Assembly (NCBI GenBank): GCA_000934665.2
Contig: JYFJ02000329.1
Location: 62,001 to 126,000, forward strand
Direction: 5' to 3'
DNA from: Catajapyx aquilonaris
Taxonomy: Eukaryota
DNA: 64,000 bases
A model generated the notes under the pieces. It was not told where the DNA came from and made no database searches. It was given only the letters and a program-made list of their open reading frames with translations. How positions within the stretch are numbered: position 1 is the stretch's first letter; each line of letters begins with the position of its first letter. Shown in pieces: positions 5,436 to 64,000 of the stretch. The position numbers and the translations under genes were made by a program.

Positions 5436-5585
5436 CAGGGTGTTCCACTTTTTGATAAATCTGATATCGCCGGATAGCAGTTATTTTTTGTAGCTTGTTG
5501 TGCCTGCACAACAAGTTACAAAAATAACTGCTATCCGGCGATATCAGTTATCAAAATGTAACCCACGAACCTATGGAACACCCTA
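5436..5585. mobile_element. Tc1/mariner-type MITE forming a near-perfect hairpin
   Basis: Ends CAGGGTGTTCCA...TGGAACACCCTA (1 mismatch) flanked by TA on both sides. The internal arms (ctgatatcgccggatagcagttattttt...aaaaataactgctatccggcgatatcag) are almost perfectly complementary. Confidence 0.75.
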
Positions 5586-28394: not shown

Positions 28395-31300
28395 TTAAGA
28401 CTTGGATGCCTTTGTTGAACTAGATGACTCCTCTTCCTCCTCAGTTGAGACGTTATCACTCGAGCAACTGCGGGTGTCACCTTTCGGCTACATATTGAAT
28501 GTAAAGAGTTTTGTAAAAATTTGGTATAAAACATGCCTATTGATTTTTGCACATACAATTATACCTTCCCCAAATCCCTGGGTTTACCCGCACCCCCCCC
28601 CNNNNNNCCCCCCCCCCCCCCAGTTCACAAGTCATTGAGGCGTAACTCATACAAAACGTCTAAAACCATTGGCACATGCACTTTCTGTGTTAAATGTTAA
28701 CGCACATCTTTAGGCGGAGGTTATTAATGACCCATACATTTTGTATGAGTTATACCGCAATGACTCACGAGCCGTAGGTATGCATAAGCCCAGTAATTTG
28801 AGGACGTTATTATTTATTAATTATACTCATATAATTGTATGTCAGCAGACACTCACCTTTCCACCTTGGTTGATTGCATCCATCACCACTTTTAGAATAA
28901 AGTATGTCCAAATTATGTGCAGGACTTGCAGAATTAAGAGGAGGCTGGTCAGCAAGAAGTAGGCAGCTGATGTCCCTATTATGGACTGATGGTGATATAT
29001 GACACTGAAAATAATAATAAATTGCATATAAATTATCATGATTCCTGAAGCACAGTTATATCACATACCTATGTAACACCCAAAAGGGATATATGTAAAG
29101 GCGGGAGAATATCCACACAGCAATGAACATCACCAGAATAACCATGCTGGTCTTTTCAAACTTGGAGTAGTGCGCCATTTTTGCACCCTAATAAAACAAA
29201 AGTGTGAACAAAATTGCAGGGTATATTCCTTCCATAACTGACCTCAAGAAAGATATCAGCTGAATCATGAAGGCAAGCAACAATCGCTCCAATGCGGAAG
29301 TAACTGAAGGCCCATGAAACTGATAAAAGGATAATGGTTGCTATGTGGTGTACAAACATCTGCCAGAAATCTTTTCGCTTGATGTCGAAAAACTGGGATG
29401 CAAACAGGGACCAGTAGAAGCCTAATTCTATCAGGTAGTACATCCGGATGGATGTGTCCTCCGCCTGAAAGTGTAACAAATGAATTCATTAGTTTACTCT
29501 CCACTTTTCCAAATGGACTGTCACTGTGGTACTGCAAATCATGATACCAGTAACTATTGTAGAGGCAAGCATCACGTTATGGCTTCCTGGTTAAATAATA
29601 ATATAATTGGTGTACATGGATTCTCCATGCAAAGTACAGATCGGATACAGACTTCTCAAGCTCAGTGTGTCCGTCAAGTACAGTGTTTCCTAAGTGCAGC
29701 CCACAAGTGCATTGTATACAAATCTACATTTTAAGCATTTTACCGGCATTTTACTAAAGAATGAAAATTCCGAATGGGGGTAAACGTAACATTGGTTTGC
29801 CGGATCATTTGCCCTAGTGAAGTTGGCTGCAGAAATTGTTTTCAGAAGATGGAAATGCACTTGTAAACTTACATGGTTGGGATATCCCTTCCAGCAGTCC
29901 TCCAAGTTCCAGAACCAGTGTCTGTTGTATAGGATAGAGAGACTTGACAAGAAGGCAAGTGTGTAGAAGGTGCATCTCCACCCTGACTCTGCATACTTGT
30001 CCAGCACTGAGGGCCGCCCTTGTCTGTGCCTCAACCTTAACCACCTCTCCACTTTCCTCACTTCCCAGTCCACTTGCTTCGACAGGCCAGCAATCTAAAT
30101 GGAGATGTTACGCCCGTATTACAATGCCTGCTGCACCTTTTCAAGCTTTCACCCATTATCCATGCAGAATAATGTAGTCATAAGAGAAATCAACATTGTT
30201 ATTTAAGTAGAAAAACCAACCGCTACAGGGAAAGTTGTGCATTTTTTTAAACTTTCACTACACTACTTTATGTAAGAAGATGTTCTCATTACAGTATTCT
30301 CAGTTTATGCAGAGGCACTACCATATTTATTAACTTCTCTATAACGACAGTGAAACCTGTCTGTACTGAACCATAGATAACAGTGGAAACTTGCCAAATA
30401 AGAAACTCCGTTTGGCCCTGGCACAAGGTTGCTAATGTAACACAAACTGTCAAGTTTGAGAGAATTTGAAAGAATGGAGCAATCCCATTATACACAGGTT
30501 TCACTGTACTGACAAATTATTTGTTATGGTATTACTAAAAAATGACATGCACATTGCAGTGGTCACACAGATGTACCATGAATTTATAACTGATTCTTTA
30601 CTTCGGCAGATTCAAAACTCATTCGTAGCAGGCATCATAGTTGGTCAGTATTCCATAGGATAATTATTTTCTGGTGCATCTATGCAACCTCGTCATTGGC
30701 ATTTGAAAGAGAAAAAGTAATGGTGGACTACATTCCTTGTGATGGTCTCTGAGCCTCCTACTGTGCATAGTTTTAACAAGCAGTGTTGAGTCAGCACAGC
30801 CCTCTACTTGTACCAACAACATGCGAAAATAATTACTAGCATTGCTTTTTTTCAAGCATGCTATCATCCTGCAGATACCAGCATGCTGATAAAATCAAGG
30901 TGGACATGATTACTTAATCACATCATTGTGTTTTTGTATATGGAAGGGCTCCCTCAGAAAAATATGTACATACAATCCCTCCCGAACTCTTAGCATAGCT
31001 GGGTAATCCTCTGCCACACCCAGGGATCACCCTTGGACACCTGACCAAGAGGCAAAAGGATTAATCATTACCGGCTGGGTGACTGTGCTGACCTTTGAGG
31101 ATAAATAACTGGAATAGTGCAAACATGACACAAGTACTAACAATGCCTTTCATAATTGCCATTATCAGCCATGTTAAATCTATATCTGGAAAGATTTTTG
31201 CGGCATTCATGTCCCAATGAATAGCGAGCAACCAACCTGAAAGCATAATTGGATCTGGCCAAAGACAAATTTTCAGATGCTATTCACATTGGTAACCAAG

Positions 31301-36660: not shown

Positions 36661-39330
36661 CTATTCCTCCAGATCCTCCTCAGAAGCGACGTCGTCGCTT
36701 GAACTTCTGGCGTCGCCCTTCGCCTGCGTCAACAATTTTGGTAAATAAACTATTTTTTTCCTTAAATAAAGAGGAACTCACCTTTCCACCGTGTGTAGCA
36801 ACATCTGGCAACACTTTAAGAATGAAGTAAGTCCAAAAAATGTGAAGGACTTGGAGGACTAGGAGGAGACCTACTGCCACAAAACCCGCGAAAGACTGGC
36901 ATATCAGCGCTTGGTGTATGGCACTGCCAAGAAATGTTGTGTAATTTTTTGAGAATAAGGCATGGGTGGTTTATACTGTACCTGTTTATAACCCAAAATG
37001 GGTATATGTAAAGACGAGTAAACATCCACACTAAAACGAAGCCGGCAAAGGCTGCAGCGCTAGTATTTTCAAACTTGGAATAGTGAGCCATTTTTGTACT
37101 CTGAAATTAAAGAAAACGTTGTAAGCACTTGTGAACCAGGAGTAAGATTATTTTGCATGTTCCATTACTTACCTCAAGGAATATGTCGGCTGAGTCGTGT
37201 AGGCAAGCAACAATGGATCCGATACGAAAGTATTTGAAGGCCCAGGAAACTGACAAGAGAGCAATAGTTGCAATGTGGTGCATGAACATCTGCCAGAAAT
37301 CTTTTCTCTTGGTGTCGAAGAACTGGGATGCAAACTGGGACCAGTAGAAGCCCAATTCCATCAGGTAGTATATATGGATGGATATATCCACATCCTACAC
37401 AAGAGAATTATATAATTATACAGTTTACAACATAATCAGTAGACTATACCTAAGGAAGGATTTGTTAGGATTATATTTGTGGCACAGTTGCTTCTGCACA
37501 TCAAAGATAAGTTGCCTTGTCCCTCTAACTCGCTGTTGTATCGCCACTGTTCCATAGAATCACCAGAGTTAATGATTACCTAATTTGTCAGCTGCACGAC
37601 ACACCCATGCAGCTGGGAATAATTATAAAACGCATGCCTGTAATGTCCAGGTGTGTGGTACACTTGTAAACATATAAGTTTAATTGACAAATGGCTTTTA
37701 AATTTTGTCTCTCTACAAGGTAGAAGGTTTGGGTCTGTACAGTTTGTCATTGTTGTCAGCTGCAGATGTTATAATACAATATATTTGATATATATTACTG
37801 AACTACAGCAGCAGGCATGATGTAAATCAACTCATATTAATTTTATTGCCTGTAACATATATCAAATAATTGTATTGTATGTTATAACATCTGCAGCTGA
37901 TAAAATGACAAACTGTACAGCCACAAACCTTGTGCCTTGTACAGTACACTGGCAGGGGGAAAATAATCTCACCTGGTAGGGATAGCCCTTCCAGCACTCA
38001 TCCACATTCCAGAACCAGTGTCTGTTGTGCAGAATATAGAACCCGAACACAAAGGCCAGGGTGTAGAAGGTGAACTTCCATCCTGACTCTGCAAACTTAT
38101 CCAGCACTGAAGGTCTGTCCTGTCTCCGTCTAATTCTCAGCCATCTCTCCACTTTCCGAACATCCCAATCCACTTGCTTCGATAGGCCAGTAATCTACAC
38201 ATTGGCAAGACAGTCACGGAAATGGAATTAATTGCATAACAACTTATGAAACATCCTTATTTTTGAACAAGATATTTATGATGATTACTACGACAACGTG
38301 TACGGTACTAACCTCCTTTTGGCTCAATTTGTGTTTGGAACTATAAGCTGCCTCCAAAACCTGATTGGACAAAGGTTGCCTCCGCTTTTGTTGACGTAAG
38401 CCTAAGAGACGTCCAGCGGGATAAAACAACGTTCTGCAAACAAATGTGCAATGTTGTAATTTGAACTTAGCTTAATTTTGCTTCCACATTTCTTTTAGCT
38501 GACAGGGTGCGTGACACACTACAGAGCTACGGCACGCACATCTTCGCGGCTCCCACATAAACACCATGTTCCCATTCCATACTGGTCGGTACCAGCCAGC
38601 GCACATAAAAAATGCCGTGTTGTATCACTCTTATTGCAGTCGTATACATATTACGTAATAACATTTTTTGAACTCCCGCTCCTTTTCTCGTTATAGCCTA
38701 CTCAAGTATCGCTCAATAATTGCAGCAAAATTAGCGTAAGTCGGAACTTAACAAATCGGAGTATTGTCTACAAATAGGCATGAAGCGTAGGCTACATTAT
38801 GTTAGAGAGTGAGCAGAGCCTCTTATTTATTTCCTGCTCAAGTACAGGTAATGCATAGTCCAGGCAGTTATCCTTCCTTCGAGCTTGTTATAGGGAACGA
38901 ATCATGCACTACGCGGAAAGTTCTAGAGAAATGCAATATTTTTTTCCTGTTTATAAGAAAGCAATGATGACGCACACATTTGCACTGGAGGCTATGATTT
39001 TCAAGAAAAAATGGGCGAAATGCTGTACTGTATGGAATAAGAATATGCTGTATGTAGGCTACTTTTTTCGTACACTGCAGTATAATTTCCTTCTTTTAAA
39101 AAACATCTCTGCAAGAGATCATACCGATCAAGCAGCTTCCTAAGAATGGTCAATCCTACAGCAATGGCCAAAGGGTAGTAAACCAGGTCCACCTCCAGCC
39201 TCCTATTCCAGTTATCGGTAGTTTTGTCCTCTCCTCCTGCTGCACATACAAAGTGTGATCTGACCCTAATGCCCCATAGTGTTCCAAATTCAAACTGCGA
39301 TCCACCCACATCCTCTTCAACAACCTCCAT
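36661..39330 (-). CDS. Ceramide synthase paralog C (Hox-like plus TLC/Lag1 domain), 7 exons, 364 aa
   Basis: Exons 39330-39125, 38433-38313, 38194-37973, 37394-37173, 37100-36982, 36923-36782, 36723-36661 join in frame (1095 nt). Intron positions match paralog A. RKDFWQMFMHHIAT...LHDSADIFLE is intact. Confidence 0.92.
37715..37940. repeat. Imperfect inverted repeat (~75-bp arms) in intron 3 of CerS paralog C
   Basis: ctgtacagtttgtcattgttgtcagctgcagatgttataatacaata pairs with tattgtatgttataacatctgcagctgataaaatgacaaactgtacag, and the match extends outward through acaagg...ggtttg. Confidence 0.75.
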
Positions 39331-44819: not shown

Positions 44820-47800
44820 ATGGCTGAGAGCGGCGTGTTGTCGGAGCGTTTCTCCGACTGGTTCTGGTCCCCGGCGGTGTGGCTCCCACCGAACGTCACC
44901 TGGGCGGACCTCACCTCCAACGAGCGGATACAATACGCAGACTTCTACCACCTCATGTACCCGCTGCCACTCGCACTAGTCGTCTTCCTCATCAGGATCC
45001 TCGTCGAGCGGTAATGACAAAAACATGAACGCAAGGGGACGGCCCAAAGACCGGTCCACCGTTGCATTGAATGGGTGTCCGGTAGTCGTGGGCAGTACGG
45101 AAAGAGTTTGGTCTGTCGATGCGGTTGCACCTTGCTAAGCATACCTGATCAGTCAGAAGGAGCGTTGTGATTTGTGCTATAATGTTTGATATGGCTTACT
45201 CTGCATGTTTTACTAGGGATTTGTGCAGTTCAAAGCACAGAACATGTTGGAAAAGGCAATATCGTAATGAAAAATGGCAGGGGTCGAAATATTCGGATGC
45301 ACTCCCAAGATTGTCAACTGCACTCCAAACTGAGCCTCGGAGTGCAAAGTTTTCACTCCAATTGGCTCCGCTTTTAAACATGGCTATACCCAGTAATTAA
45401 AAATTAAGCACTCCAAGTAAGCGATCTGGACACAAATTTTAAAATGCTACCCCTGAAATGATGGTAGAATTTTATGATTTTAAGGCATTTCTCATGAGTC
45501 AGCTGCAGTGTGAATCATCCTGGGTTGATGTGATAGTTATGGAGTAATCGAGATAGTGGTACTTTTATATTCGTATAACAGAAATGACGGCAAGAGTTGT
45601 ACTACTGACCTACAGAAACAAACCTGCAACTGTAGTGGGTGATATGGTTGAGTGTTCTTCCAGCTCCAAGTTGGTAGGGGGTGGGAATGTTTTACTCCTG
45701 CACGCTCCTGCATGACAGTGTGGCTTGGGTAAGGGGTCAAAACGCTGAAAATCAATGTGACATTATGGGCAAACCACTGCCAGCATGTAATAAACAGTAA
45801 TATATTGGTAGTGTTGATTCAGCTTGGATTCGTAGAAGGCTGCCATGCAATGGAATTGCAGTACGTTTTCACCCAATCTTGATAGGCACCTGTTATTGAT
45901 TTAAATGGCCTCCACCCTGGTTAGCTTAGCCTCTTGGGTAATTGGTTGTTTACTTCTGTCGTTTTATACAGTTGCTATGAATTAAAACCTAGTGGGCATG
46001 TTACCTGGGGTGATCAGACTAGAAGGGCCTGTGGACAAGGTTGTGTGTGGCAGGAAGCCATTTAGATAATTGGATTGCCTAAGCAGTGTTGCAAAATGAA
46101 TAGGACTTCCATCTTGATAGATGTGGACACTCGTAATTGTATGGGATTGTGGGGATTACAACGTCCAGATTGATCCGTCAATTTTGCATCAGAGTCCCAG
46201 GCAGGAAGGGAGTGTTACTAAAATATTAGGCTTGCGTGACTTTTAATTGGCGTGGGTGGCAAGCTTATTCTGAACAGGGTGAGTGTGTAATGTGTATCAG
46301 AGATTTGCAATGGGAGGCTGACGTTCATCTTCTACCAACTTGTAAAGATGGTAGCGGAACTACATTAAAACTAGTTTCCCAAATAAAATGCTTGAACATA
46401 ATTATGTTGATGCGTGTGTTGATGGGAATAACTCAGAAATTTGGTAATTTAAACAAGCATGAATAACTAACAGTTGAATGTTACAGGTATGTGTACACTC
46501 CATTTGGACTGAGCCTGGGCCTGCGTGCAACCCGTCCGAAGCGTGCTGCCCCCATTGATGTTCTGGAGAAGGCATACAAGGAGAGTGGAACATACAGGCT
46601 GCCCCACAAAAGGGTGCTGGGGCTGGCCAAGCAGGTGGATTGGGAGGTGAGGCAAGTGGAGCGGTGGCTACGACAGAGGCGGAGGCAGGACAAACCAACC
46701 AACCTCGTTAAGTTCTGCGAGAGCGGGTGAGGATTGGTTTAATGCCATTGTTAAGCGGTTCTCTTGGTAGTGCTAGGGTCTCTAAGAAAAGTTCAATTGC
46801 AGGTAAACTCTTACTGCCAAATCTTCCAATTTCGGAGATAAATTTTTGTCATATCACCTGCCAAGATTCTGCTTTTATTGAGATACATTGATGCATGAAA
46901 TGGTTTTGGTACATTTGCATTGTTATTAAATTTAAGTGTTACTTTTTGATAGGAAGTACTAGAAACAGTGTTAATGGTGTTTTTTAACAGGTGGCGATTC
47001 ACGTACTATGTGGCTGCATTCACTTTTGGATTCTATGTCCTGTGGGACAAGTCGTGGTTCTGGGACATCAAGAACTGCTGGTATGAATACCCACATCATG
47101 TAAGTACTTATTTACTGACTGAAATTTCCACCCTGTTGGTATCATTGGGCTGATTGCCAATGTTATTTGCTCCACATGTTTTGAGAACAATGTACAAAAT
47201 AATATCCATGATTTAGTCCTTTCATTGAGGTTAATGTCTGCATAATAATGAATGTTTTATTATCAGACACTGTTGCTCCAGGCTATTGTTCACTTGCAGT
47301 CCTCTTGATCCCTCATGTGTGACAGCCGATGACATTTGCAAGGGACTGATGAAGGATCAATGTTCTGCTTTATGATTATCAATAATCATAAAGCAGAACA
47401 TTGAGAAATTTGTTGATTTTTTTGGTGTGCATGAATGATGAAATTGGTCAATGTTGAGTTTATTAATGATTACCACACAATACTAATAATTCCAATCTCC
47501 AAATCAATTTATCACACATCTCTGGATTACATCATTGTATAGGGAAAGTTTCCAAGGGTTTTTGCTCAACTCATTTTTTTCCAGTGCAATTGGATTTAGG
47601 TAGCCTGACTTTTAAAAAGAACATATTTGACCTCAGTCCATTCATTTTGTAGGGTGTTAGAGTGTAGCTGTCAGTCTCCCCTGTGCAGGGATCAGTTGGG
47701 GAAGGTCATATTTATATTGCGTAGTAGACAATGTTGTTCACGTAACCCTGCACGAAAAATCCATTGTAGTCAAACCTGGCAACCAAGGAGACCATTCAGT

Positions 47801-50800
47801 TGCCCCATCTGGACTTGTTATTGACAGAGCCTCATACCTGGACATACTGGAGAATTACACTCTTTGTCATCAATATTTCCAACTGGAAAATAATGCCTTC
47901 CAACAACACAGCATCACTGTGGGGCATCAGCTGAATCAAGAGTTGCCTGGGAAATCGATAGGCAGGGTTGGGGCAATTGTATGGACTTCTCACAGTGTCC
48001 TAGGGTTCCCGACCTAATAATAATTGAATTATTTTCCTCTGGAGCAGGGGTGGGCAACCTATGGCCTGTGTGCCGGATCAGGCCCGCAGATGCTATTTGC
48101 GTGGCCTGCACAAAAATTTCGGAATTCCTGAAAATGTTTGAAAAATTAAAATTGCAAAATTTTATGCCTGTGCTAAGAAACACATTGTGTTTTAAATTTA
48201 TACAGGCCATTTTCATTGGTATATTTAGCTAATTTTATCGATTTTCAGAGAATTTAATGATAATTTATGCAATTAATGGAAGTTAATTTGAAACGATGGA
48301 TATACCTATTGTAAACTGTTGAATAAGTTGAAATTTTTTTGTTAGATGCGGCCCGTCAAATGTTTAAAAATCTCTATGCTACCCACAGAGAGAAAAGGTT
48401 GCCACTCCTGTTCTAGCGGCATGTGACAAAATATTGCCTGTATCGTCAAGGTCAGAAAGGACCTTTAGCAGTTTACAGACCTCAAAGGTGTACTGTGGCT
48501 ACACCTACATGCCAAACACATGGACTGAGATCAAATATTGCCTGTTTGTTTTGTCAGTGTACTTTGGGTGTCTACATTAAAATTTATTGAAGAAATATGT
48601 TGAAAAACAACTTTGTACTATTTGCTTTGCAAGGATGTAACTCAGGTATGGATGTGATGAGTGAATTTTATGATATTAATGTTTTCTAATGTAATAATAT
48701 CAAGATGCCCACCAATTTTGTGGCTTAAAAGTAATGCAGGGGGTGCTGCAGAAGCAATAAAAAATTTCAGAAATGTTTGTCATATTTACTGAAATAGCTT
48801 TAAGTAAGGAATTAAAGTTTGGGGGAATACTGTAATGAGTATGATTGATGAATATTGCATTGGTCTAGATTTTTACTTTTATTTCAAAATGTGCTGCTGC
48901 AAATTAATCATAATCCAAAATGGGTGGTTCAAAGCCCTTATGGGAAGATAGGTTATTGCTCTAGCCGTATGACTATAAAAGAAGCTTAGGAATGATGACA
49001 CTCATATGACAGTGCACAGTATTGAAGCTTATCATTGGCAACTGCTGATGCCCATTGTAATACTTGGTCAATGCTGCAAGTATTAATCTCTCGGTTATGC
49101 AATAGGATAAGGTTTAAATTCTGTACTTTGCAATCATGACGCTGCCTTGGATAAACTATACTACTATCGGAATATCCTTTTGATGTGTTTGTCAGCCAGG
49201 ATTTTAATTGTCTTGGACAGGCAGGCTGATTACATGAATGGGAGGAAGCATAATTATTAATACACCTACATTCCTAGCAATCTTGTTTGAAGTTTCAAAG
49301 AAATCAATCACTTTAAATTTTTATAATATTATTTGATTTTGCAGCATAACTAGTCTTGATGTAACTCGGTTAAATGAAGAAAAAAAAGAAATTTGAATCC
49401 CATTTAGAGTCATTCCCTAATGCAAGTGGCTAGAGGGCAGAGTTCATGTGGCAGCTAGCCCAAAATTTTATATCCTGTTCTAGAAATTAGGTCACACATA
49501 ATCCATGGCATGACAGAGAAATTATACAGACTGTCATCATTCTGTACATTTGAGATGACTGGCCGGGAATGTTTTCAAAAGCTGCCATGTTTAGGTAAAT
49601 ACAGCATATTCAAAAGTGGTACAGACAAATCCAAAGGTTACTTGTAGAAAGTCAAGAATTGCAAGGACTGCAAATGTTGTGAGATGTTCTGAAGTGACTG
49701 TTTCCAAACAAGCCTAAGGATGTCTGGGTCAATGTGACTACTCATCTGATAATCTCTCAAGGTCATTTTGATCCATCCAATTGTCAAATAAACTTATATG
49801 TCATGTATTTGTAATTTAGTGCCTAATATACATTAATCTTAATCAGACCTTGAACCTTCATGCTTTTTTTGCAGTGTATTATTACGATTGGAGGGAGCTC
49901 AGTAAAAAATTGTGTGAGGATATTACTGTTGTTGTAAAGATCTGTTTGTACCTTGTACCTTGTAAAAGAGAGAGAACTCGCTACAATGAAGGCCTTATGC
50001 ATTACGCCTTATCAGTAATTTTTAATGTAGATGAAGAGAGAATAATTAGGAGCATTTTCATCCTTAGTAGGCCTTTATATTTTCATATGTCTGTCTTCTT
50101 CTAACTGCAGTACCGGTATATCATTACAGGGAATCACTAATGATGATACGTTTCTTCTATCATTGCAGCACATTTCACGTGACGTGTGGTGGTACTACAT
50201 GCTGTCGATGGCATTCTACTGGTCCCTGACATTCTCCCACTTCTTCGATGTGAAGCGCAAGGACTTCTGGCAAATGTTCCTCCACCATCTGACGACCATC
50301 TCTCTGCTAGCCTTCTCGTGGACCAGCAACTTGGTCCGCATTGGGACTCTGGTACTTCTCCTTCATGATGTGGCTGACATCTTCTTGGAGGCTGCTAAAA
50401 TGGCAAACTACTCCCAGCGGGCCTGGGTCTGCGATGTCATCTTCATCATCTTTAGTGTCACCTGGATAATCACCCGACTTGGGATCTACCCAGGATGGAT
50501 CATGTACAGGTGAGCATCAAGTGCTGCACTGGTTGTGTGATACACTGGGCTATTATTAAACAAATATACGTGTTACAGCACACTGGTGGAGGCTCCTGCC
50601 ATCCAAGCTGTGTTTCCAGCCTATTACATCTTCAATACTCTTTTGAGTATGCTGCTCGTCCTGCACGTCTTCTGGACATACTTCATTCTTAAGGTGGCCT
50701 ACCGTGCCTTCCAGTCTGGACAGGTAAAGTACCTCATTTTAAAAACTTTTGCTTGCAGGTCAGTTTTACACTTTATTTAACATAGGGCACAAGAGTAAGC

Positions 50801-56369: not shown

Positions 56370-56966
56370 GCACATTTTCTCTCCCTTGTAGTTTAATAAA
56401 TCACAGCATTTAGTTCCTACTAATTTATTCTTGGTGGTTGCATTGGTATACATGTAATTTGGATTATAAACACATTCTTTGGGGGGTAAGTGAAAGTAAG
56501 TGCAAGTATTTGACAGGCACATTCATAAGTGTACGGGTGATATGCAAGCATATTTATATATCTTTTCTGAGGGTAAAGGTATCAAGGAAAGTAATGAGAT
56601 CACAGCACCACGTAAAGTCACATTTGCAAAAGTGTGCGATTTTATATCCCTCGCACTCAGCCTCACGACAACATTTATTCAGACTAGATTTTTAAAGGTG
56701 CGAGTTTGAGCCAAATCAACTGTAAGAACGTCATCTTTGGTGTTTAAAATGGAAGCCTTATAATCTCTGGTCGGGTGAATGTTATTTACAGTACAATACA
56801 CCTAACATTGGCAATGTTATTTTTTTCTCCCTCATTACTTCCACATAAAAGCTTGTGACTATTGACCTATCACATAAAAGCAACTTATAATACTTATGTG
56901 TACGCATTGGAAAACAACATAAAATATGTTGCGAACTTCAACTAAAAAAAGAAGACCTCTTCCACC

Positions 56967-59900
56967 TTATGAAAATGAGATGGGTTCTTCCAGCATCTCT
57001 TCCCATAAGTGAGACAACAACCAAAATTTCTCTTCGCAGCGATCTGCCAGTCGACTCTTCTCCAGCTCACCAACAGGGAGAGTCAATCCCTGGAGAAGAA
57101 TAACTCCGGTTAATGGCACGTAACATTACATGTTTTCTTTCACTTCTCTCTGTGTACTGACATAAAAACACACAAACAGGTGCAGATCCTAACCTGAAAT
57201 ACATCCTCCCATGCTCCTTTGAGTGCCCCCATGAATCTTCTGAGCTCCCCTGGCATTGCAAAGTAGAGGATCCAGTCCCCACTTCGTTGGTGCGCCTCTG
57301 CACACTCCACCTCCAGAAGGCAGCACTGGCGCTTGTGCATGGCCACTCGGGTCACGCTCCCGACGCCTGCCATGGCAATCAGCGTCGGAGGGCAGTCACC
57401 TGTCTGGTAGGCCACGATCCTGTCTGGCACCAGAGCCAGGCAGCAGGCTGTAGGTGGAGGACCACGTGACATGTCCCCTGCCCCTAATCCTGCCCCTGCT
57501 TCCATGGCTTGCACAAAGGCCTGAAGCCATTCTGAGGCATCATACTCATCAGCAGCGGCAAACTGGTGCCCACCACCTTTCCATACAAGTTCAAAAGCAT
57601 GTGGACGGCCAGCGGCAGAGTCAGACAACCGACGACAACCATGGCAGTCATGTGAGAAGAGAGGAGTGAGCACCTTTGGCATTGGGTTGCTCTGGCTTTC
57701 GAACTGGTACAAGACACCAGCCCTGGAACGGGATAAATCATGCACACTTTGTAACTCGTACGTGGAGGGCAAACTCACTTCAAAATGACGTAGACTGGAT
57801 CCCAGATCCCACCCTGCTGGCGAACCATCAGATGACCATCCTTGATGGGCCCCAGTGGAGTCATAGGTGGGGACGTCTGCACATCCTCCATGTACACCAA
57901 CCCATGGTACAAGAGGAGCGACTCTTCTCCTTTGTCACTCTCCAGATCTGCTATCCGATGGAGGTCATCCATGATTTTGGCAGCAGAGGTCTGCACCACC
58001 GAAGGAAGGGACAAAGGGTGAGTCGGCCATGGAAGAACCCTCCTGGTTGCCAACTCCAAGTGGCCAGCAATGGCCATGGTGGTGAGCTGGTCTCTTGTGT
58101 CCAGCTGGAAGCGATCATGGTGGTCCCGACCCACTAGGCAGACCCACTCCAGGGATGGACCAAGCTGGGGAAGAAAACAAAATCATAATACAAGCCAACA
58201 ACATACCATTACCACAGTACTTTATCACAACTCACCACCACAAAGTCGAGGGCAAGGTAAGGCAGGGAGAAGCAGACCCTGAATCCTCCGCCTCTCCTCA
58301 TTCCCTTCTTCTCTTCAACTCCTACAAAGTACACCCTGTGCATCCCAAGAATAGCTAAAACCAGCTTCGGCTTTCCCGATGAGTGACCGCAGCTGCCAAC
58401 ATACGTCTTGTATATTTCTTCTTTAAGGTCATGTCTGAGCCATGCTGTGACTCTCCTAGATGGCTTGACCTCCCTTCCCACATGGGTATCAAGGGCTCCA
58501 ACCCTGATCTCTTCATCTACATCTGGATCCATCCATGACTGGACTGAAACTCCTGGTATGTACACTGAAGTGTCCAACTTCATGCCCCCACGTACAAGCT
58601 TCTTCATGGGTTTCTTTGGAGGTGGTGGGTCTTCCTGGCCTTCGGGTATTCCTCGCTCACCCAGTTTGGCCACCAGGTTGGCCAAAGGTGTTGGTGGAGG
58701 TAGGCTGGCTGGCGGGTGAGTTGGAACAGCATCTCCAACACACCAACTGTGGCGGTTACCAAATGAGACACGCCGTCGACGGAGTCTTGGTTTTGCATCC
58801 AGGGTACGTAGCACCAGCAAACTGTTTATTCGATTGTCTTGAACTTCGTGTCGGGAGTCAACCTCATCAGTTTTACTAATCACCTCCTGATCGCTGTCTA
58901 AGAAGGCGACTCCTGAGTCACCAGGAGAGGACACCTCACTAATCTGCAGAAAAATCAGTGTTTACATACAACTATAATAATTGCTAATTACTGCACACCA
59001 TTTTAAACACCTTAACATTGACAATCATTACCTCACTCATTTGTGACATGCTTTCACTGCGCAGCTGCCTTGTGAACAGGCCCACGTCCAAGAAGTTAGA
59101 GTCAGCCTCCAAGTCAAAATCCAGACGGTCCAGCCGCTCTGCCAGGCCCACTAAGGTCTCCCACAACTGCTTGTCCCGGAGTACGGCTGTAGGCAGGTAA
59201 TATTTCTTGATTATATCCGAGTTGTTTTTGAAAGACTGGAGGTAGCTGCCAAAGAGCTTGTCGTTGAGGCTGAGGTAGAGCCAGGCGCGGCCTTTCCCAA
59301 TCTGCGTCACCACTGAGGGAAGGTTCTCCACTGTCTCGACCAGCGACTTGTGAGAGAATTCCCGGGCAAATGACCAGTAACCAAGATGGAGCTTACGGAG
59401 GCCATGCAACAGGGCAAAGTCCAGGTTCTGACAGAGTGAGTGTGTGCCTGTTGGCCCAGCTGCATCACCTCCATCTGCTCCCTTCTTGTCCTCACTCTCA
59501 AACTGCTCAACCTGTCACAAAGAAAACCATCCATCAGATAGAAGTTATAGCTTAAATAATCGTTAGGTTATTCATTTTTCATGCTTACTGCAAAATCATG
59601 TGACCACGCAAAGATTAGGCTCCACATTAGAAGTTATTATGTACCAGGGGACACATCATGCATGAGACTGTGTTCATTAACATGACTGATTACTTCATGA
59701 AGAGGAGAACCTAGGACAGCATTTGCATATCAAGTGCAATAATTGTGACCTCCAAGGCAACTCTGTCACATAATGTAACATCAAGTCACATAATGTAATT
59801 TAGCTTTGCACGCAGTATTTTAAAAATATACAGCCACGATTGGGGCAATAATTTCATGTTTTGTTACTTGAAAAGGCTGTTTGATGTGTATGAGCATAGC

Positions 59901-61286
59901 AAGGTCACCTCAATTTAACTATTAAAGTATCGTTTACCAAGGTTAATCCTGTCATGTTTCACTTGAAAAATAAGGCTCAAGCTTGAAGTAACTGCTTACA
60001 TTTGCAGTAACAAGTCAAAAGGTGCTCATGGGCTGAGGTAATCCTGATGTAACACCAGTGTAAACATTTCATTTATTTTTTCAGTGTAAGCTCTGTCTGT
60101 AATCATCCTTTTATGCTTCTCTAGTCTGCCTCAGGTAATTTTATCTTGGACTTTAGAGACCGAAACTTCAGCTATTTCAACAATATTAATACCCCTCAAC
60201 ATATATATTTGAACATTTACGTGCACCTCTAACATGCAACACATTAATTATCATGCTGTGTAATGCTTGTTATAATATTCAGATTAACAGTTGAGTTGAT
60301 GAGAACCATTCCAGGGACAGGAGTTGCAGCTGGTTGGTGGATCTTGTAAATTTACTCCTTTCATTGTGTTGTGGATCATTAAAACTTGGCTTCATTCCAG
60401 CTTGTATTTATTGAACACCAGATACATGTAGTAGAATTATTGATCAGTTCACATCGGCTCTGTTCCTAAAAGATGGTCATCAGAGCGAAAACTCCATACA
60501 ACAGAGCACATGGATAGGCCACCAGGAGCTGCTGTCGTTCCATGGTAAGGGCTGTTACGAAAAGCTTTGACGCTGACAGGGCGCACCACAAGACGGCCAT
60601 GGCAGTCAGAGCCACTCCAACCACGCCCTTCAGGGAGACCAGGATCCCAACTCCAGAGAGGGCAACCATGGGCAGCAGGCAATAGCCCAGCACGCTAACC
60701 GCATTGGCAATGGACACACCAGCCAAACTCATCAGGTTGAGCAGCACGTACATTCCCAGGCAGCCCATCACGCTGATGCCATACACATATCCAAAGTGCG
60801 CTTTCCCCGACAACAACAGGAAAGCGCCAAAAGCCAAGCAGAACACCAGCGGTCCAGCCATGTCCGCATCCTGCAGCAAGCCGTAATCAGTCGCTCGGAA
60901 AGGGTTCAGCACGGCCAGCGTCTTTTGCACGATGCGACTAGGGTTGATCCCAAGCTCCTCCAGCAGCGGCGGCTCATCCTCAAAACTTGTCGCCTCATAC
61001 GTGCCGGGATGCTCATATGTGCTGGGTTGCTCATATGTGCTGGGACGCTCATACATGTTGGGATGCTGAGGCGGTGAAGAATTTAATCTGAATATTATAA
61101 CATCGCTCCAGCATGGTCCATTGCTTCCCAACACATTACAAAAATGCTAAACTAAAGAAGGTGCGTGTCATGCAAAAAAACATGTGCCAGAAGCCATCAT
61201 ATGAGAACAATGAGTCGACAGCAAACCTGTGACAATGCGATTTCCACTTCCCCTAGGATTCTCTCCTTCACGTTTCGGCTCGCCAT
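56967..61286 (-). CDS. PLEKHM2: Pleckstrin homology domain-containing family M member 2 (SKIP)-like, RUN plus PH domains, 6 exons, 761 aa
   Basis: Exons 61286-61227, 59511-59032, 58943-58236, 58164-57779, 57722-57194, 57089-56967 join in frame (2286 nt). The N-terminus VKERILGEV and RUN domain [13 protein letters not shown]...GYW...[13 protein letters not shown]...KKYY match SKIP as I recall it (VKDRILENI, LCEHLDHALLYGL, GRSRAWLYLALNE). C-terminal PH domain CHGCRR...RPHAF...[12 protein letters not shown]. Confidence 0.9.
60407..60412 (-). terminator. Candidate polyadenylation signal of the nested YIPF5-like exon
   Basis: AATAAA on the - strand, ~54 nt downstream of the YIPF stop codon. Confidence 0.65.
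60466..61065 (-). CDS. YIPF5: Intronless Yip1-domain protein (YIPF5/7-like) nested in PLEKHM2 intron 1
   Basis: Uninterrupted [17 protein letters not shown]...[11 protein letters not shown]...[10 protein letters not shown]...GYCLLPM...[22 protein letters not shown]. The first in-frame ATG is at 61056 (196 aa). An in-frame acceptor at 61066-61067 would join it to PLEKHM2 exon 1 (219 aa). The 5' end is uncertain. Confidence 0.88.
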
Positions 61287-62661
61287 CGATGTCTTAGGAC
61301 CCCAGTCTTCCGAGTCAAAAAGGGACGGTGGATGCTGCTCTGGCCCGTCTTCTTGCCACAGAAGCCAGGCCCTCGGAGCCAGAGCAACACACAACAGTCG
61401 ACAAAAAAATCAATCGCAATTCACAGGATAGCAGTCGACATCTTGAATCAGACTGACGGGAAAAAGGGCGCTAACTAATATATTAGTTACGAAGATCACA
61501 CGTGGTTATAATGACGAGTTAAATATGTAAAATCAATTGACACACATGACACTGCATTACAAAATTAACTCGATACATCAAAAAATATGTGTGACTAAAT
61601 ATGCAGAATAATCAGCCCTTAATACGCTACCTAATGAACATATTAAGCCAGAATCGCAATAACTAATATATTACATCGCCCTTGTTATGACGGCAGCGAT
61701 GTTGCCAGATTGCAGGATTCAGTCGCATAATGTGAAATCGGGCATAATTGAATGGCTGGGTATGACCGGTTGGTCAATTGCATTTTGAGGTCCGGTGCGG
61801 TGTTGGAGTGTTGACAAAATGCGGCGGAATAAGCCTGCCACATTTTGCCATTTTGGGTGAGATTGTGTAGCCTATTGATTTGGTTGCCGTTTACGCGCAT
61901 CTTTTGCGCATATCGGCACATGCTCACTGGCCTGCTTTCTTATTGTCTACTAGAAGATGTAATAACAAAGGGGGCGAATTAGTTGGCCGTAATTTGCTGG
62001 GATCGTTTGGGAAGCTATTATTATAGAATGAACAGAGACTGACAAAATGAACTGTTCCAACCGGTTCCTAGGCTAAACAATTCGTAAATGCTATGAGGAC
62101 TCCAGCAGGACTCCATCGCATATACTGGACTCCATGTATATATTCGTTTAGATTTGTAGGCTACACATGTACAGTAGCGTACAATAACACATGGAAACTT
62201 CCCAGGAATAATTCGCAACGCAATAATATCCTGGAATATTATCTTTACGATCAAATTACATAGCACTCTCCTACGTGCATGACTTATTACAGTCAAGAAG
62301 ATGCTGTATACTTATTCAATCCTGAATTGCCCAATTTGGATGTAAAAATTGAGGTCCCACGCATCCCACGAGACTATTATAGGCTATGTTGAAGCTGTTT
62401 ATTGTAGCGCAATCCATGTCGTCATTTTCCTCGTACTGTACAGTACCTTCAGTTATCCTACAATTCTGCAATGAGTAATTTGCGTAGCCTTACAAAGGAC
62501 GATCCTCCTCTGCAGACATTCATTGGCCTGATAGATAGACTACTGCGCTGAGTAGCCTATACCTATTGTGTACAAAATTAATGTGTAAACAATAAGGTAA
62601 AGGGGATGAAGATAAGCTGGTTGGAAATACGTAGCCTATATTATTATTATCTCCACCTTTG

Positions 62662-62856
62662 ACCGAAGCAGTTTGGAGTAGGGGTCTAGGGGATATGGTG
62701 TCCGACTGCTAATCGGGAGGTCCTGGGATCAAATCCCGGGGCCGGCAACTCTGACCGTGGTTTTCTGTGGTTTCCCACGGTCCTTCCCGGAAAATTCCGG
62801 AGTTGTTTCCGTAATTAATAGGCCACAGCCGCTTCCTTCTATCCCTATCCTATCCC
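62662..62856 (+). mobile_element. tRNA-derived SINE (second family)
   Basis: tRNA-like head with a box-B-like GGATCAAATCCC. The body GTGGTTTTCTGTGGTTTCCC...GGCCACAGCCGCTTCCTTC resembles arthropod SINE bodies, and it ends in short CTATCC repeats. Confidence 0.7.
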
Positions 62857-64000
62857 AAAGAGCGCAGTAAAATGAAAGCAAAGAGTTCCAGGCAAATCAA
62901 ACTTCCCCCCCCCCCCCCCCAAAGAGCCGCCGNATTATAATCTCCACCTTTAATATTCAGAAGAACAGTGGTCAGTGCACTACTGACTAACATATTCTGG
63001 AGTCGGGGGGGGGGGGACAAAGACGCGGTCACGCAACCTGGTGTCCTTGGTAGTTATTAGTATGCTAATATGAGCGAATCTGGCCTGCTCCAAGGTTTTT
63101 GTACAAACAGACAATTTTGTAAGGAGCAGCAGGTGTACTTCAGTACTACGGCGGCCAAGGGATGGAATAGGTGGCATCTAACAGCAATATGTGCAGATCT
63201 CTGGTGAGGTTTCTTTTAACTTTATAGCTTATTAACAGCTGGTATGCTGAATGCCCGAAACATATCTACACCAAAGCCGTATTTCGCAAATATAATACGT
63301 CGCGTCGTTGCGGAGGTAAGTTCTACAGCGAAGCGTAGTTCGTATAGTAGCCTATCGTAGTTGTACAAGTGAAACACACGCAGGCCAAAACCCCAGTTTC
63401 AAGATAATCGAAGGCAAAGATTTGACCTTGCACTTGTCTACGTAGGCCTACGACATGCTAATTGGTACAGAAAATCTGGACTTCTTGGCTCATTTTGAAT
63501 CTTGAGGATCACAGCATGGACTTCACTAGACGACATCGACAGCAGGAAAAATTCTACTCTGCGGTAGCCTACCGGTATATTATTCAAAACAGCCAAAGTA
63601 GGACTTAAGTTAGTGGATTATTTAACTTTGCCGATGATAATAATTATATATTCCAAATATTGCTACTGAAACGTTCTATTTGTTTTACAGTTCACCCCGA
63701 TGGCAAAATTGGCAAAAAATGAATGCTACACACCATCATTTAGGTTATCATTATATAATGTTATTTATATTACATCTTTTTTATTTCAGTGCTACTTCGT
63801 GCTGGAGCCATCATTGGCTCCCTTGGGGGGGGGGGGGGTGGATTACCACCATTTTTCTTACGAATTTTCTTTTCAATTTTTCTCTCCGGTGCAGGGATCA
63901 GGATAGGGATTTGTGAGGAGGGTGGAGGGGACACTGGTGCAAGTGCGCTGTCTTAATGTTGGGGGTCGTGTGCAGTCCCCCAGGGGGTCAGGTTGCAAGA

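What the first reader, a model, noticed from the sequence alone, without database searches (positions are those of the whole stretch)
60268..61102. Perfect 20-nt complementary pair that could loop out the nested YIPF exon (candidate RNA-structure splice/poly(A) switch)
Seen in sequence: two exactly complementary 20-mers lie ~800 nt apart. In the minus-strand pre-mRNA, the upstream arm (61102-61083) sits ~17-37 nt before the YIPF acceptor, over the expected branch-point region, and includes a second AG. The downstream arm (60287-60268) lies ~120 nt past the YIPF AATAAA. There is no TSD, and the arms do not extend. Established: long-range RNA pairing controls exon choice in arthropods (Dscam1 docking/selector sites; Drosophila Nmnat couples pairing to splicing and polyadenylation). 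Inference: pairing would mask the YIPF 3' splice site and favour full-length PLEKHM2, while cleavage before the second arm is transcribed would give YIPF mRNA.
Basis: partly seen in the sequence, partly recalled or inferred. Interest (0 to 1): 0.85.

Follow-up and report, generated by a model that had tools for sequence, protein, structure and literature searches.

The report
Inverted repeat brackets nested YIPF exon
A perfect 20-base inverted repeat flanks a YIPF5-like exon that lies inside a PLEKHM2-like gene and is spliced to that gene's first exon; it may fold the RNA to help decide which of the two proteins is made, but this is untested.

Summary
Arms 60268-60287 and 61083-61102 are exactly complementary, with 795 nt between them. 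They are the only two copies in the window at up to 3 mismatches. Chance does not explain them: about 3e-4 perfect pairs of 20 nt or more are expected, and the longest in 60 shuffles was 17 nt.

A spliced contig of run X5, from a different sample, joins 61227 to 61065 with GT..AG ends. So the single-exon YIPF5-like ORF is an alternative 3'-terminal exon spliced in frame to the first coding exon of a RUN+PH, PLEKHM2-like gene.

The upstream arm covers the likely branch-point zone, 18-37 nt before that acceptor. The downstream arm starts 120 nt after the AATAAA. The helix (-22.4 kcal/mol) is in the minimum-energy fold in all four contexts tried, with pair probability about 0.95, and it has no rival partner.

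That it acts as a switch remains inference. No orthologous intron, no whole genome for a copy count and no exon 1-exon 2 junction were available. There is no adjacent target-site duplication, and no repeat family is seen over the arms.

Verdict: a real structure and a plausible Nmnat-like loop-out switch (about 0.4). A DNA-level relic with no role is nearly as likely.

The parts
61083..61102 (-). Upstream arm of the 20-nt inverted repeat. It lies in the 161-nt intron between exon 1 and the YIPF exon, 18-37 nt before the exon start. It carries UAAU-type branch-point candidates and a CAG at 61090-61088.
   Evidence: the branch-point reading is inference from the sequence
60268..60287 (-). Downstream arm of the inverted repeat. 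It starts 120 nt after the AATAAA and about 109 nt after the place where the RNA contig stops.
61227..61353 (-). Shared exon 1, at least this far 5'. The CDS 61286-61227 encodes [20 protein letters not shown] and ends in phase 0. The donor GT is at 61226-61225.
   Evidence: RNA contig record 28 covers 61227-61353; translation; the peptide aligns to the N-terminal LKDRIL motif of PLEKHM2-like proteins, 0 of 200 shuffles reaching the observed mean
61066..61226 (-). The 161-nt intron removed when exon 1 is joined to the YIPF exon (GT..AG).
   Evidence: joint 61065/61227, ends CT..AC on the + strand, 1 contig of X5, depth 28.6, 104 letters on the shorter side
60396..61065 (-). Nested alternative 3'-terminal exon encoding a YIPF5-like protein. 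It is in frame with exon 1, has its own ATG at 61056-61054 and its stop at 60468-60466. The 3' end is approximate.
   Evidence: the X5 contig 60396-60884 stops 11 nt after the AATAAA, and contigs cannot prove an RNA end
60407..60412 (-). AATAAA poly(A) signal of the nested exon.
60994..61065 (-). Four tandem 18-nt units ([24 protein letters not shown]) starting at the first base of the nested exon; the three other copies are each 83% identical to the reference copy.
   Evidence: (family D1)
59512..61226 (-). Intron 1 of the PLEKHM2 route (1715 nt). It contains both arms and the nested exon. The acceptor AG is at 59513-59512.
   Evidence: sequence and homology of exons 1 and 2; this junction was not seen in RNA
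59032..59511 (-). PLEKHM2-like exon 2, holding the RUN domain.
   Evidence: Pfam RUN, E 6.7e-19; its 3' end is set by joint 58943/59032; the best relatives are named PLEKHM2(-like)
61109..61115 (-). Outer 7-nt complement (CAUGCUG) that could extend the helix across a 6 x 9 nt internal loop; its partner is 60252-60258.
   Evidence: not in the MFE; about 1-2% by chance on my own estimate, and noticed post hoc
60252..60258 (-). Partner (CAGCAUG) of the outer 7-nt complement.

Best explanation
Shown: one transcription unit on the minus strand makes two unrelated products from one first coding exon. Exon 1 (20 codons, the conserved N-terminus of a RUN+PH, PLEKHM2-like protein) is spliced across a 161-nt intron to a nested, single-exon, YIPF5-like terminal exon with its own AATAAA. 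By homology it must also be spliced across 1715 nt to the RUN-domain exon. A perfect 20-nt inverted repeat brackets the nested exon.

Inferred mechanism: in the pre-mRNA the two arms form a 20-bp helix. The helix buries the branch-point zone of the proximal acceptor and loops out the acceptor, the YIPF ORF and the poly(A) site. It also roughly halves the effective distance from the exon 1 donor to the distal acceptor. Transcripts that recruit U2 and define the terminal exon before the helix closes give YIPF mRNA. Transcripts in which the helix closes first skip the nested exon and give PLEKHM2.

Inferred origin: the arms are a DNA-level product tied to the arrival of the YIPF segment, for example an insertion into the centre of a palindrome or a small inverted copy. 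They did not arise by point mutation. Any function was acquired afterwards.
For: - The repeat is real and not chance.
- The acceptor that the upstream arm sits in front of is used with exon 1 as donor, in a contig from a different sample.
- Exon 1 belongs to PLEKHM2. Its peptide aligns to the N-terminal LKDRIL..I..A.K motif of 31 full-length RUN-domain relatives (mean score 23.5 against 17.5 for shuffles; 0 of 200 shuffles reach it). Those relatives carry about 21-25 residues before the point that matches the start of exon 2. Three of the four I looked up are named PLEKHM2 or PLEKHM2-like.
- So the distal route must skip a complete proximal terminal exon, which calls for some suppressor of that exon.
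- The duplex energy is -22.4 kcal/mol. All 20 pairs are in the MFE in 4 of 4 contexts (871 to 2361 nt), with mean pair probability 0.95-0.97.
- Each arm's next-best partner in the pre-mRNA is weaker by more than 12 kcal/mol (-23.3 against -10.9).
- PLEKHM2 exons downstream and the exon 1-YIPF junction are both present in the same run.
- Precedent: in Drosophila Nmnat, boxes around the proximal acceptor of an internal terminal exon are required for distal-acceptor use, shown with disruptive and compensatory mutants. Introns with conserved boxes are enriched for the combination of alternative acceptor and internal poly(A) signal, P = 0.0001 (PMC2724269, passages). Exons looped out by complementary regions have lower inclusion in human cells, and one alternative 3'-end exon (FGFR1OP2) is listed as looped out (PMC8052449, passages).
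Against: - No conservation or covariation evidence exists. The best YIPF relative is 74% identical and the best RUN-exon relative is 40-44% identical, so no close species is in the libraries searched. The 4 metagenome loci are only 42-57% identical.
- A perfect helix with sharp ends and no G-U pairs looks more like a young DNA event than a long-maintained RNA structure.
- The exon 1 to exon 2 junction was not observed, and isoform ratios are unknown.
- Predicted folding of a long RNA in isolation is weak evidence for folding in vivo.
- The 20-mer could not be counted genome-wide.
- The branch point is assigned by eye.
Confidence: 0.4

Rival explanations
1. Neutral relic. The inverted repeat is a by-product of how the YIPF segment or the surrounding DNA arose: insertion into the centre of an older palindrome, a templated inverted patch made during break repair, or a template switch. 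It has no measurable effect on which acceptor is used. The choice between the two products would then be set by splice-site and poly(A)-site strength, protein factors or kinetics.
For: - The arms are perfect, sharp-edged and free of G-U pairs, as expected of a recent copying event.
- They sit at what may be the borders of the YIPF-derived DNA. Protein similarity to YIPF5 homologues reaches 61077, 5 nt from the inner edge of the upstream arm, in 1 of the 9 homologues tried, and 61074 and 61068 in two others. This is a low-complexity region, so the point is weak.
- The nested copy looks like a derived, truncated duplicate. It is a single exon with 28 residues before the PPLLEELG motif, against a median of 95 in 118 of 120 homologues. 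None of the 120 has an exon-1-like N-terminus.
- Short-gap perfect palindromes occur elsewhere in the window (5461-5547, 47357-47404), so a palindrome was a possible target.
Against: - A 20-bp helix of -22.4 kcal/mol over the branch-point zone is hard to reconcile with no effect at all (inference).
- The nested exon is not a very recent duplicate. No second contig at 90% likeness or more lies on it or on the arms in three DNA runs, where depth stays flat at 33.8, 30.9 and 22.1.
- Its own 18-nt repeat units have already diverged: the three other copies are each 83% identical to the reference copy. If the arms are as old as those units, 40 neutral bases without one change would be unlikely, roughly 3-13% on my estimate.
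Confidence: 0.35
2. Transposon ends. The arms are terminal or subterminal inverted repeats of a DNA transposon or foldback element that carried, or was split by, the YIPF segment, and the 20-mer is multi-copy in the genome. This concerns origin and could coexist with either reading above.
For: - The unit is an inverted repeat around an 835-bp segment.
- The window holds foldback or MITE-like structures at 26.3-28.1 kb and 37713-37945.
- The upstream arm region shares a 12-mer with the 37.7-kb element, empirical p about 0.02, found post hoc.
- A palindromic TTATAA lies inside the outer ends of the arms and could be read as a target duplication if the repeat is trimmed by 8 nt.
Against: - No direct repeat abuts the arms.
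- The only flanking direct repeat, 10 nt at 61138 and 60246, is matched or beaten in 6% of random placements.
- The downstream arm region's similarity to the 37.7-kb element is at chance level, p = 0.16.
- Nothing else in the window resembles 59500-61400.
- The window holds only the 2 copies of the 20-mer at up to 3 mismatches.
- No extra contigs pile up over the arms in the DNA runs, whereas the SINE-like repeat at 62.7 kb reaches depths of 1e5. A shared 20-mer alone would be too short to be laid, so this argues only against a longer repeat.
- The interior is a host-type ORF, not a transposase.
Confidence: 0.15
3. The two 20-mers act as DNA rather than RNA: paired binding sites for a protein, such as a boundary or regulatory element framing the nested gene, or sites for a recombinase that could invert the segment.
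For: There are two identical sites in inverted orientation framing a gene-sized unit. Nothing else supports this.
Against: No joint between contigs indicates an inverted form in the three DNA runs or in X5 (table 5). No such system is known to me for animal nuclear genes of this kind (recalled). An inverted exon could not be spliced to exon 1, yet the forward junction is seen.
Confidence: 0.04

Closest known systems
Drosophila Nmnat intron 4 stem (Raker et al. 2009, PMC2724269; passages read)
   Same: [quoted passage not shown] The proximal acceptor opens an internal terminal exon with its own poly(A) site, and the distal one continues the gene. The stem favours the distal route. The arms lie hundreds of nt apart.
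   Different: [quoted passage not shown] Here the downstream arm lies beyond the poly(A) site, so the whole exon and its 3'-end signals are in the loop.
- Nmnat yields two C-terminal variants of one enzyme. Here the two products share only 20 residues and are otherwise unrelated proteins.
- The Nmnat boxes are conserved in 12 species and were tested by mutation. Nothing of that kind is available here.
Cholinergic gene locus, ChAT with nested VAChT (tick example, PMC7524744; passages read)
   Same: An ORF contained in a single exon lies in the first intron of a host gene, in the same orientation, and is spliced to the host's exon 1, which both mRNAs share.
   Different: - Here the shared exon is coding and in frame with both products (frame). 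Whether the cholinergic shared exon is coding was not in the passages I read.
- The two cholinergic genes act in one pathway. No such link between PLEKHM2 and YIPF5 is in print in the library searched: 0 papers hold both names.
- No flanking inverted repeat is described for that locus in the passages read.
Retrocopies that hitch-hike on a host gene's 5' exons (review PMC5408686; passages read)
   Same: An intronless copy lies in a host intron and is expressed as a chimeric transcript with the upstream host exon(s), or as a new alternative 3' exon, and may lower host output.
   Different: No poly(A) remnant and no convincing target-site duplication were found here. The parent gene was not identified. 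The flanking inverted repeat is not a feature of retroposition.
Exon loop-out by conserved complementary regions in human genes (Kalmykova et al. 2021, PMC8052449; passages read)
   Same: Complementary regions flank an exon, and looped-out exons have lower inclusion. One listed case (FGFR1OP2) is an alternative 3'-end exon. The authors hypothesise that RNA structure suppresses intronic polyadenylation.
   Different: Those regions are defined by conservation across species and mostly contain mismatches and G-U pairs. Here there is one perfect pair in one genome.
Dscam1 docking and selector sites
   Different: That system needs one docking site and many competing selectors. Here each arm has a single partner, and the next best is weaker by more than 12 kcal/mol. 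It is not a competitive multi-partner system.

Membership tests
Long-range RNA helix controlling an alternative terminal exon (Nmnat type) | Complementary boxes in one pre-mRNA that flank the proximal acceptor | tested here: met
   The arms are at 61102-61083 and 60287-60268, and the acceptor used in RNA is at 61067-61066.
Long-range RNA helix controlling an alternative terminal exon (Nmnat type) | The proximal acceptor opens a terminal exon with a poly(A) site, and a distal acceptor continues the gene | tested here: inconclusive
   The proximal junction and the AATAAA were seen, and an RNA contig stops 11 nt after the signal. The distal junction 61227/59511 is inferred from homology only.
Long-range RNA helix controlling an alternative terminal exon (Nmnat type) | The helix is thermodynamically favoured over alternatives | tested here: met
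   The energy is -22.4 kcal/mol. All 20 of 20 pairs are in the MFE in 4 of 4 contexts, with probability 0.95-0.97. The next-best partner scores -10.9. This is prediction only.
Long-range RNA helix controlling an alternative terminal exon (Nmnat type) | Boxes conserved, or with compensatory changes, in related species | not testable with these tools
   No eukaryotic genome collection is on hand. No close relative appears in the protein libraries (best 74% and 40-44% identity). The metagenome loci are 42-57% identical.
Long-range RNA helix controlling an alternative terminal exon (Nmnat type) | Disruptive and compensatory mutations shift and then restore the isoform ratio | not testable with these tools
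   This needs a bench experiment.
DNA transposon or MITE with terminal inverted repeats | Target-site duplication directly outside the repeats | tested here: not met
   No direct repeat of 2-11 nt lies at the arm edges. Candidates appear only after trimming the arms by 5-8 nt, and these sit within their own palindromic TTATAA.
DNA transposon or MITE with terminal inverted repeats | Many copies in the genome | not testable with these tools
   No genome is held. The window has 2 copies only. No longer repeat lies over the arms in the DNA runs.
Processed retrocopy | Intronless copy of a gene whose relatives have a longer, multi-part coding region | tested here: inconclusive
   It is a single exon with 28 residues before PPLLEELG, against a median of 95 in 118 of 120 homologues. 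The parent gene in this organism and its exon structure are unknown. The host gene is itself intron-poor.
Processed retrocopy | Poly(A) remnant and flanking direct repeats | tested here: not met
   The 113 nt between the presumed cleavage site and the arm are 35% A with no A-run. The best flanking direct repeat, 10 nt, is at chance level at 6%.
Nested gene sharing the host's first exon (ChAT/VAChT type) | The whole nested ORF sits in one exon inside the host's first intron, in the same orientation, spliced to host exon 1 | tested here: met
YIPF5 / Yip1 family protein | Sequence similarity across the Yip1 membrane domain | tested here: met
   3269 proteins with E <= 1e-3; the best are 1.9e-80 (74% identity) and named YIPF5 in Daphnia, Tribolium, Octopus and others; most carry PF04893. 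My own Pfam scan of the protein gave 0 families at E <= 0.01, which is unexplained.
PLEKHM2 (SKIP) | N-terminal RUN domain, a PH domain further on, and the conserved N-terminal LKDRIL motif | tested here: met
   RUN E 6.7e-19. PH E 1.4e-4, at 22.8 bits just under the 25.1 cutoff. The best relatives are about 1000 aa, and three of the four looked up are named PLEKHM2(-like). N-terminal motif.

The most novel reading that the evidence does not exclude
One promoter and one 20-codon first exon feed two unrelated trafficking proteins: a PLEKHM2-like RUN/PH protein and a YIPF5-like membrane protein. The split between them is set by a single 20-bp long-range RNA helix that loops out the entire nested gene, including its acceptor, ORF and poly(A) site. 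That would be an RNA-structure gene-choice switch, rather than an isoform switch, built from the footprints of the DNA event that brought the nested gene in.
Probability: 0.3. Interest if true: 0.65.

Novelty: new member of a known kind. Interest (0 to 1): 0.5.

Why it matters
If the helix works as proposed, this locus is a compact natural case in which RNA folding chooses between two different genes that share a promoter and a start codon, not between variants of one protein. The downstream arm lies outside every splicing and 3'-end signal, so a single antisense oligo or a small edit would test it cleanly.

It would also show how a newly arrived nested gene can be kept from silencing its host. 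A complete terminal exon 161 nt after exon 1 should otherwise capture most transcripts.

If the helix is inert, the locus is still a documented example of a nested YIPF5-like copy expressed by hitch-hiking on the first coding exon of a PLEKHM2-like gene. No paper in the library searched holds both gene names.

Tried and rejected
- **Genome-wide count of the 20-mer:** no whole genome is held for this window.
- **Expression data:** no RNA holder was listed by the look-up of sequencing runs. Run X5, whose kind is not on record, behaved like a transcriptome: five GT..AG joints and no cover of the intron interiors.
- **Gaps in X5:** it has no cover at 59248-60267 or 61492-62511, and no contig joins exon 1 to exon 2. 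I draw nothing from these gaps.
- **Earlier findings of this scan:** three look-ups (near, relatives, by protein) returned nothing.
- **Orthologous intron:** the metagenome scan with the YIPF protein gave 4 loci at 42-57% identity, none of them an orthologue.
- **Exon 2 'longer' search:** 753 candidates, none scored. I replaced it with the full HMMER search.
- **Target-site duplication:** none at the arm edges. A 10-nt direct repeat, 27 nt outside the upstream arm and 22 nt outside the downstream arm, is matched in 6% of random placements, so I rejected it as evidence.
- **Kinship with the foldback element at 37713-37945:** empirical p is 0.019 for the upstream arm region and 0.16 for the downstream one. 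It was found post hoc and I did not rely on it.
- **Extended imperfect repeat around the arms:** only the 7-nt outer complement turned up, and it is not in the MFE.
- **Docking/selector-type competition:** no second partner within 12 kcal/mol.
- **Further YIPF5 exons:** tblastn with 9 homologues found only the nested exon in the window.
- **Known RNA families:** Rfam on 59000-64000 at E <= 1 gave 3 sub-threshold matches, none on the arms.
- **Pfam on the YIPF protein:** 0 families at E <= 0.01. The family assignment rests.
- **Assembly artefact:** rejected, because an independent contig in each of three DNA runs spans the region with 0 differences. These runs are of the sample that may be the source.
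Full report
**1. The observation**

On the + strand, 60268-60287 and 61083-61102 are exactly complementary 20-mers with 795 nt between them. The 20-mer has 2 matches in the 64-kb window at up to 3 mismatches, and these are the two arms. The expectation was 0.03, and 0 of 100 shuffles gave two matches.

In 60 shuffles that keep local composition, the longest perfect inverted repeat within 3 kb was 12-17 nt. The analytic expectation for 20 nt or more is 3.0e-4 per window.

The real window does hold longer perfect inverted repeats, nine of them. Seven are collinear pieces of one 1.8-kb foldback at 26.3-28.1 kb, and two are short-gap hairpins at 5461-5547 and 47357-47404. The pair studied here is the only isolated one.

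A contig of 9777 nt in each of three DNA runs (X1, X2, X4) spans both arms with 0 differences. So the repeat is not a product of the genome assembler. These runs are of the sample that may be the source of the window, so they are not an independent individual.

**2. What lies between and around the arms (minus strand)**

- **The nested ORF.** The only long ORF between the arms encodes a 196-residue protein (ATG 61056-61054, stop 60468-60466). It has 3269 relatives with E <= 1e-3. The best are at 1.9e-80 and 74% identity, and the named ones are YIPF5 of Daphnia, Tribolium, Octopus, Limulus and others. An AATAAA lies at 60412-60407.
- **Exon 1.** Upstream, 61286-61227 encodes [20 protein letters not shown], followed by GT.
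- **The PLEKHM2-like exons.** Downstream, 59511-59032 encodes a RUN domain (Pfam E 6.7e-19). A later exon holds a weak PH domain (E 1.4e-4, 22.8 bits against a cutoff of 25.1).
- **Identity of the host gene.** A full HMMER search of the RUN exon against 1.84 billion representatives gave 428 hits with E <= 1e-3. The best ten are about 920-1160 residues and 38-42% identical, and their match starts about 21-25 residues further into the protein than in exon 2. Of the four I looked up, three are named PLEKHM2 or PLEKHM2-like (Haliotis, Branchiostoma, grass carp) and one is a hypothetical protein of Batillaria.
- **Exon 1 belongs to that gene.** The exon 1 peptide aligns to the conserved N-terminal LKDRIL..I..A.K motif in most of the 31 full-length hits among the top 40. 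The mean local score is 23.5 against 17.5 for shuffled peptides, and 0 of 200 shuffles reach it.

**3. RNA evidence**

Run X5 is from another sample, and its kind is not on record. It gave only spliced pieces, with five GT..AG joints.

- Four joints are small PLEKHM2 introns: 57088/57193, 57721/57778, 58164/58236 and 58943/59032.
- The fifth joins 61227 to 61065 (1 contig, depth 28.6, 104 letters on the shorter side).

Exon 1 ends in phase 0 and 61065 starts a codon of the YIPF frame. The junction therefore predicts a protein of 20 + 3 + 196 residues, unless translation starts at the internal ATG.

Another X5 contig covers 60396-60884 and stops 11 nt after the AATAAA. This fits a poly(A) site there, but contigs cannot prove an RNA end.

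No contig covered 59248-60267 or joined exon 1 to exon 2. That junction rests on homology and on a good acceptor at 59513-59512.

**4. Nature of the nested copy**

- None of the 120 listed YIPF5 homologues has an exon-1-like N-terminus. The best local scores are internal chance matches.
- 118 of the 120 carry the [12 protein letters not shown] motif, with a median of 95 residues before it. Here there are 28.
- tblastn with 9 homologues found no other YIPF5 exon in the window.
- The exon begins with four diverged 18-nt tandem units.
- No second contig at 90% likeness or more lies on the exon in three DNA runs.

The nested gene is thus a truncated, single-exon, lineage-specific form that hitch-hikes on the host's promoter and first exon. 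That fate is described for retrocopies (PMC5408686, passages), and the layout matches the ChAT/VAChT locus (PMC7524744, passages). I found no poly(A) remnant or convincing target duplication, so retroposition is not shown.

**5. The arms in this frame**

- **Upstream arm.** It lies 18-37 nt before the exon, inside the 161-nt intron. It carries the only UAAU-type branch-point candidates that I can see in the last 60 nt, and an AG too close to them to be used. This is my reading and is inference.
- **Downstream arm.** It starts 120 nt after the AATAAA.
- **Predicted pairing.** The duplex energy is -22.4 kcal/mol. All 20 pairs are in the minimum-energy structure in 4 of 4 contexts from 871 to 2361 nt, with mean pair probability 0.95-0.97.
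- **No competitor.** Each arm's next-best partner anywhere from exon 1 to exon 2 is weaker by more than 12 kcal/mol. There is no docking/selector-type competition.
- **Outer complement.** A further 7-nt complement lies beyond a 6 x 9 nt internal loop, but it is not in the predicted fold.

**6. How it most likely works (inference)**

A complete terminal exon only 161 nt after exon 1 should win over an acceptor 1715 nt away. Yet exon 1 encodes the conserved PLEKHM2 N-terminus, so the distal route must be used.

The helix would bury the branch-point zone. It would loop out the acceptor, the ORF and the poly(A) site, and bring the exon 1 donor closer to the distal acceptor.

This is the logic shown experimentally for Drosophila Nmnat (PMC2724269). 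It also agrees with the lower inclusion of looped-out exons in human cells (PMC8052449).

The downstream arm is only about 109 nt past the likely cleavage site and will usually be transcribed before cleavage. The competition is more likely between branch-point or terminal-exon recognition and helix closure.

**7. Origin and rivals**

Twenty perfect pairs with sharp ends point to a copying event at the DNA level. Possible forms are an insertion into a palindrome centre, a templated inverted patch or transposon ends.

- **Against a transposon.** There is no abutting target duplication, no other copy in the window, and no repeat family laid over the arms in the DNA runs.
- **Weak hints for one.** A 12-mer is shared with a foldback element (p about 0.02, post hoc), and a 10-nt flanking direct repeat exists (6% of random placements). 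Both are at or near chance.

A DNA-level origin is compatible with a later role in RNA. Whether the helix is maintained by selection cannot be decided. No close species exists in the libraries I could search, and no genome is held for the window.

**8. Verdict**

- The gene model is confirmed by a spliced contig.
- The switch is plausible and has precedent but is untested: confidence 0.4.
- The rivals are a relic with no role (0.35), transposon ends (0.15) and a DNA-level site function (0.04).

If true, it is a new member of a known kind, a long-range RNA helix steering an alternative terminal exon. The unusual twist is that the two outcomes are different genes.

Noticed in passing
window 62683-62851: A very high-copy short repeat. 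Summed contig depth reaches 88,884-481,123 in run X1, against 33.8 for the single-copy flank, and many loose ends fall at 62687-62694 and 62850-62851. Its head has sub-threshold tRNA similarity (Rfam tRNA 25.7 bits against a gathering score of 29, at 62683-62739), while ARAGORN finds no tRNA. It looks like a tRNA-derived SINE about 1.3 kb upstream of exon 1. One DNA contig in each of X1, X2 and X4 joins 62682 to 62850, skipping 167 nt, with only 21 letters on the shorter side. This may be an allele or a paralogous site without the insertion.
   Followed up: partly
window 26304-28128: A large imperfect foldback of about 1.8 kb. Many collinear perfect inverted segments of 15-33 nt lie around a centre near 27.2-27.5 kb. 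A 161-residue ORF inside it (27342-27824, minus strand) has no Pfam match.
   Followed up: partly
window 37713-37945; 5461-5547; 47357-47404: Smaller foldback or MITE-like hairpins. One is a roughly 230-nt imperfect palindrome at 37.7 kb. Another has 28-nt perfect arms with a 31-nt gap, and a third has 23-nt perfect arms with a 2-nt gap. Perfect palindromes are therefore not rare in this genome.
   Followed up: partly
window 29159-29485 (-), 37110-37394 (-), 50046-50510 (+): Three separate ORF pieces carry a TLC domain (PF03798; E 1.2e-20, 2.6e-20 and 4.3e-32). This suggests a local cluster of paralogous TLC-domain genes next to the PLEKHM2-like gene. That these resemble ceramide synthases is my recollection, not a tested result.
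   Followed up: partly
window 60994-61065 (-): The nested YIPF exon opens with four tandem 18-nt units encoding [18 protein letters not shown] and HPGTYE. The array starts exactly at the first base after the acceptor, and the protein's own ATG lies inside the first unit. It may be a short home-grown substitute for the long Y/Q/P-rich N-terminus of canonical YIPF5.
   Followed up: no
window 56800-59511 (-): The PLEKHM2-like gene is intron-poor, with very short introns of 56, 71, 88 and 104 nt seen as joints in X5 and exons of 387-708 nt. A single-exon gene in this genome is therefore not in itself proof of retroposition.
   Followed up: no
P0001 (window 60469-61056, -): My Pfam scan gave no family at E <= 0.01 for the YIPF5-like protein, although most of its homologues carry a precomputed PF04893 hit. 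This is unexplained.
   Followed up: no
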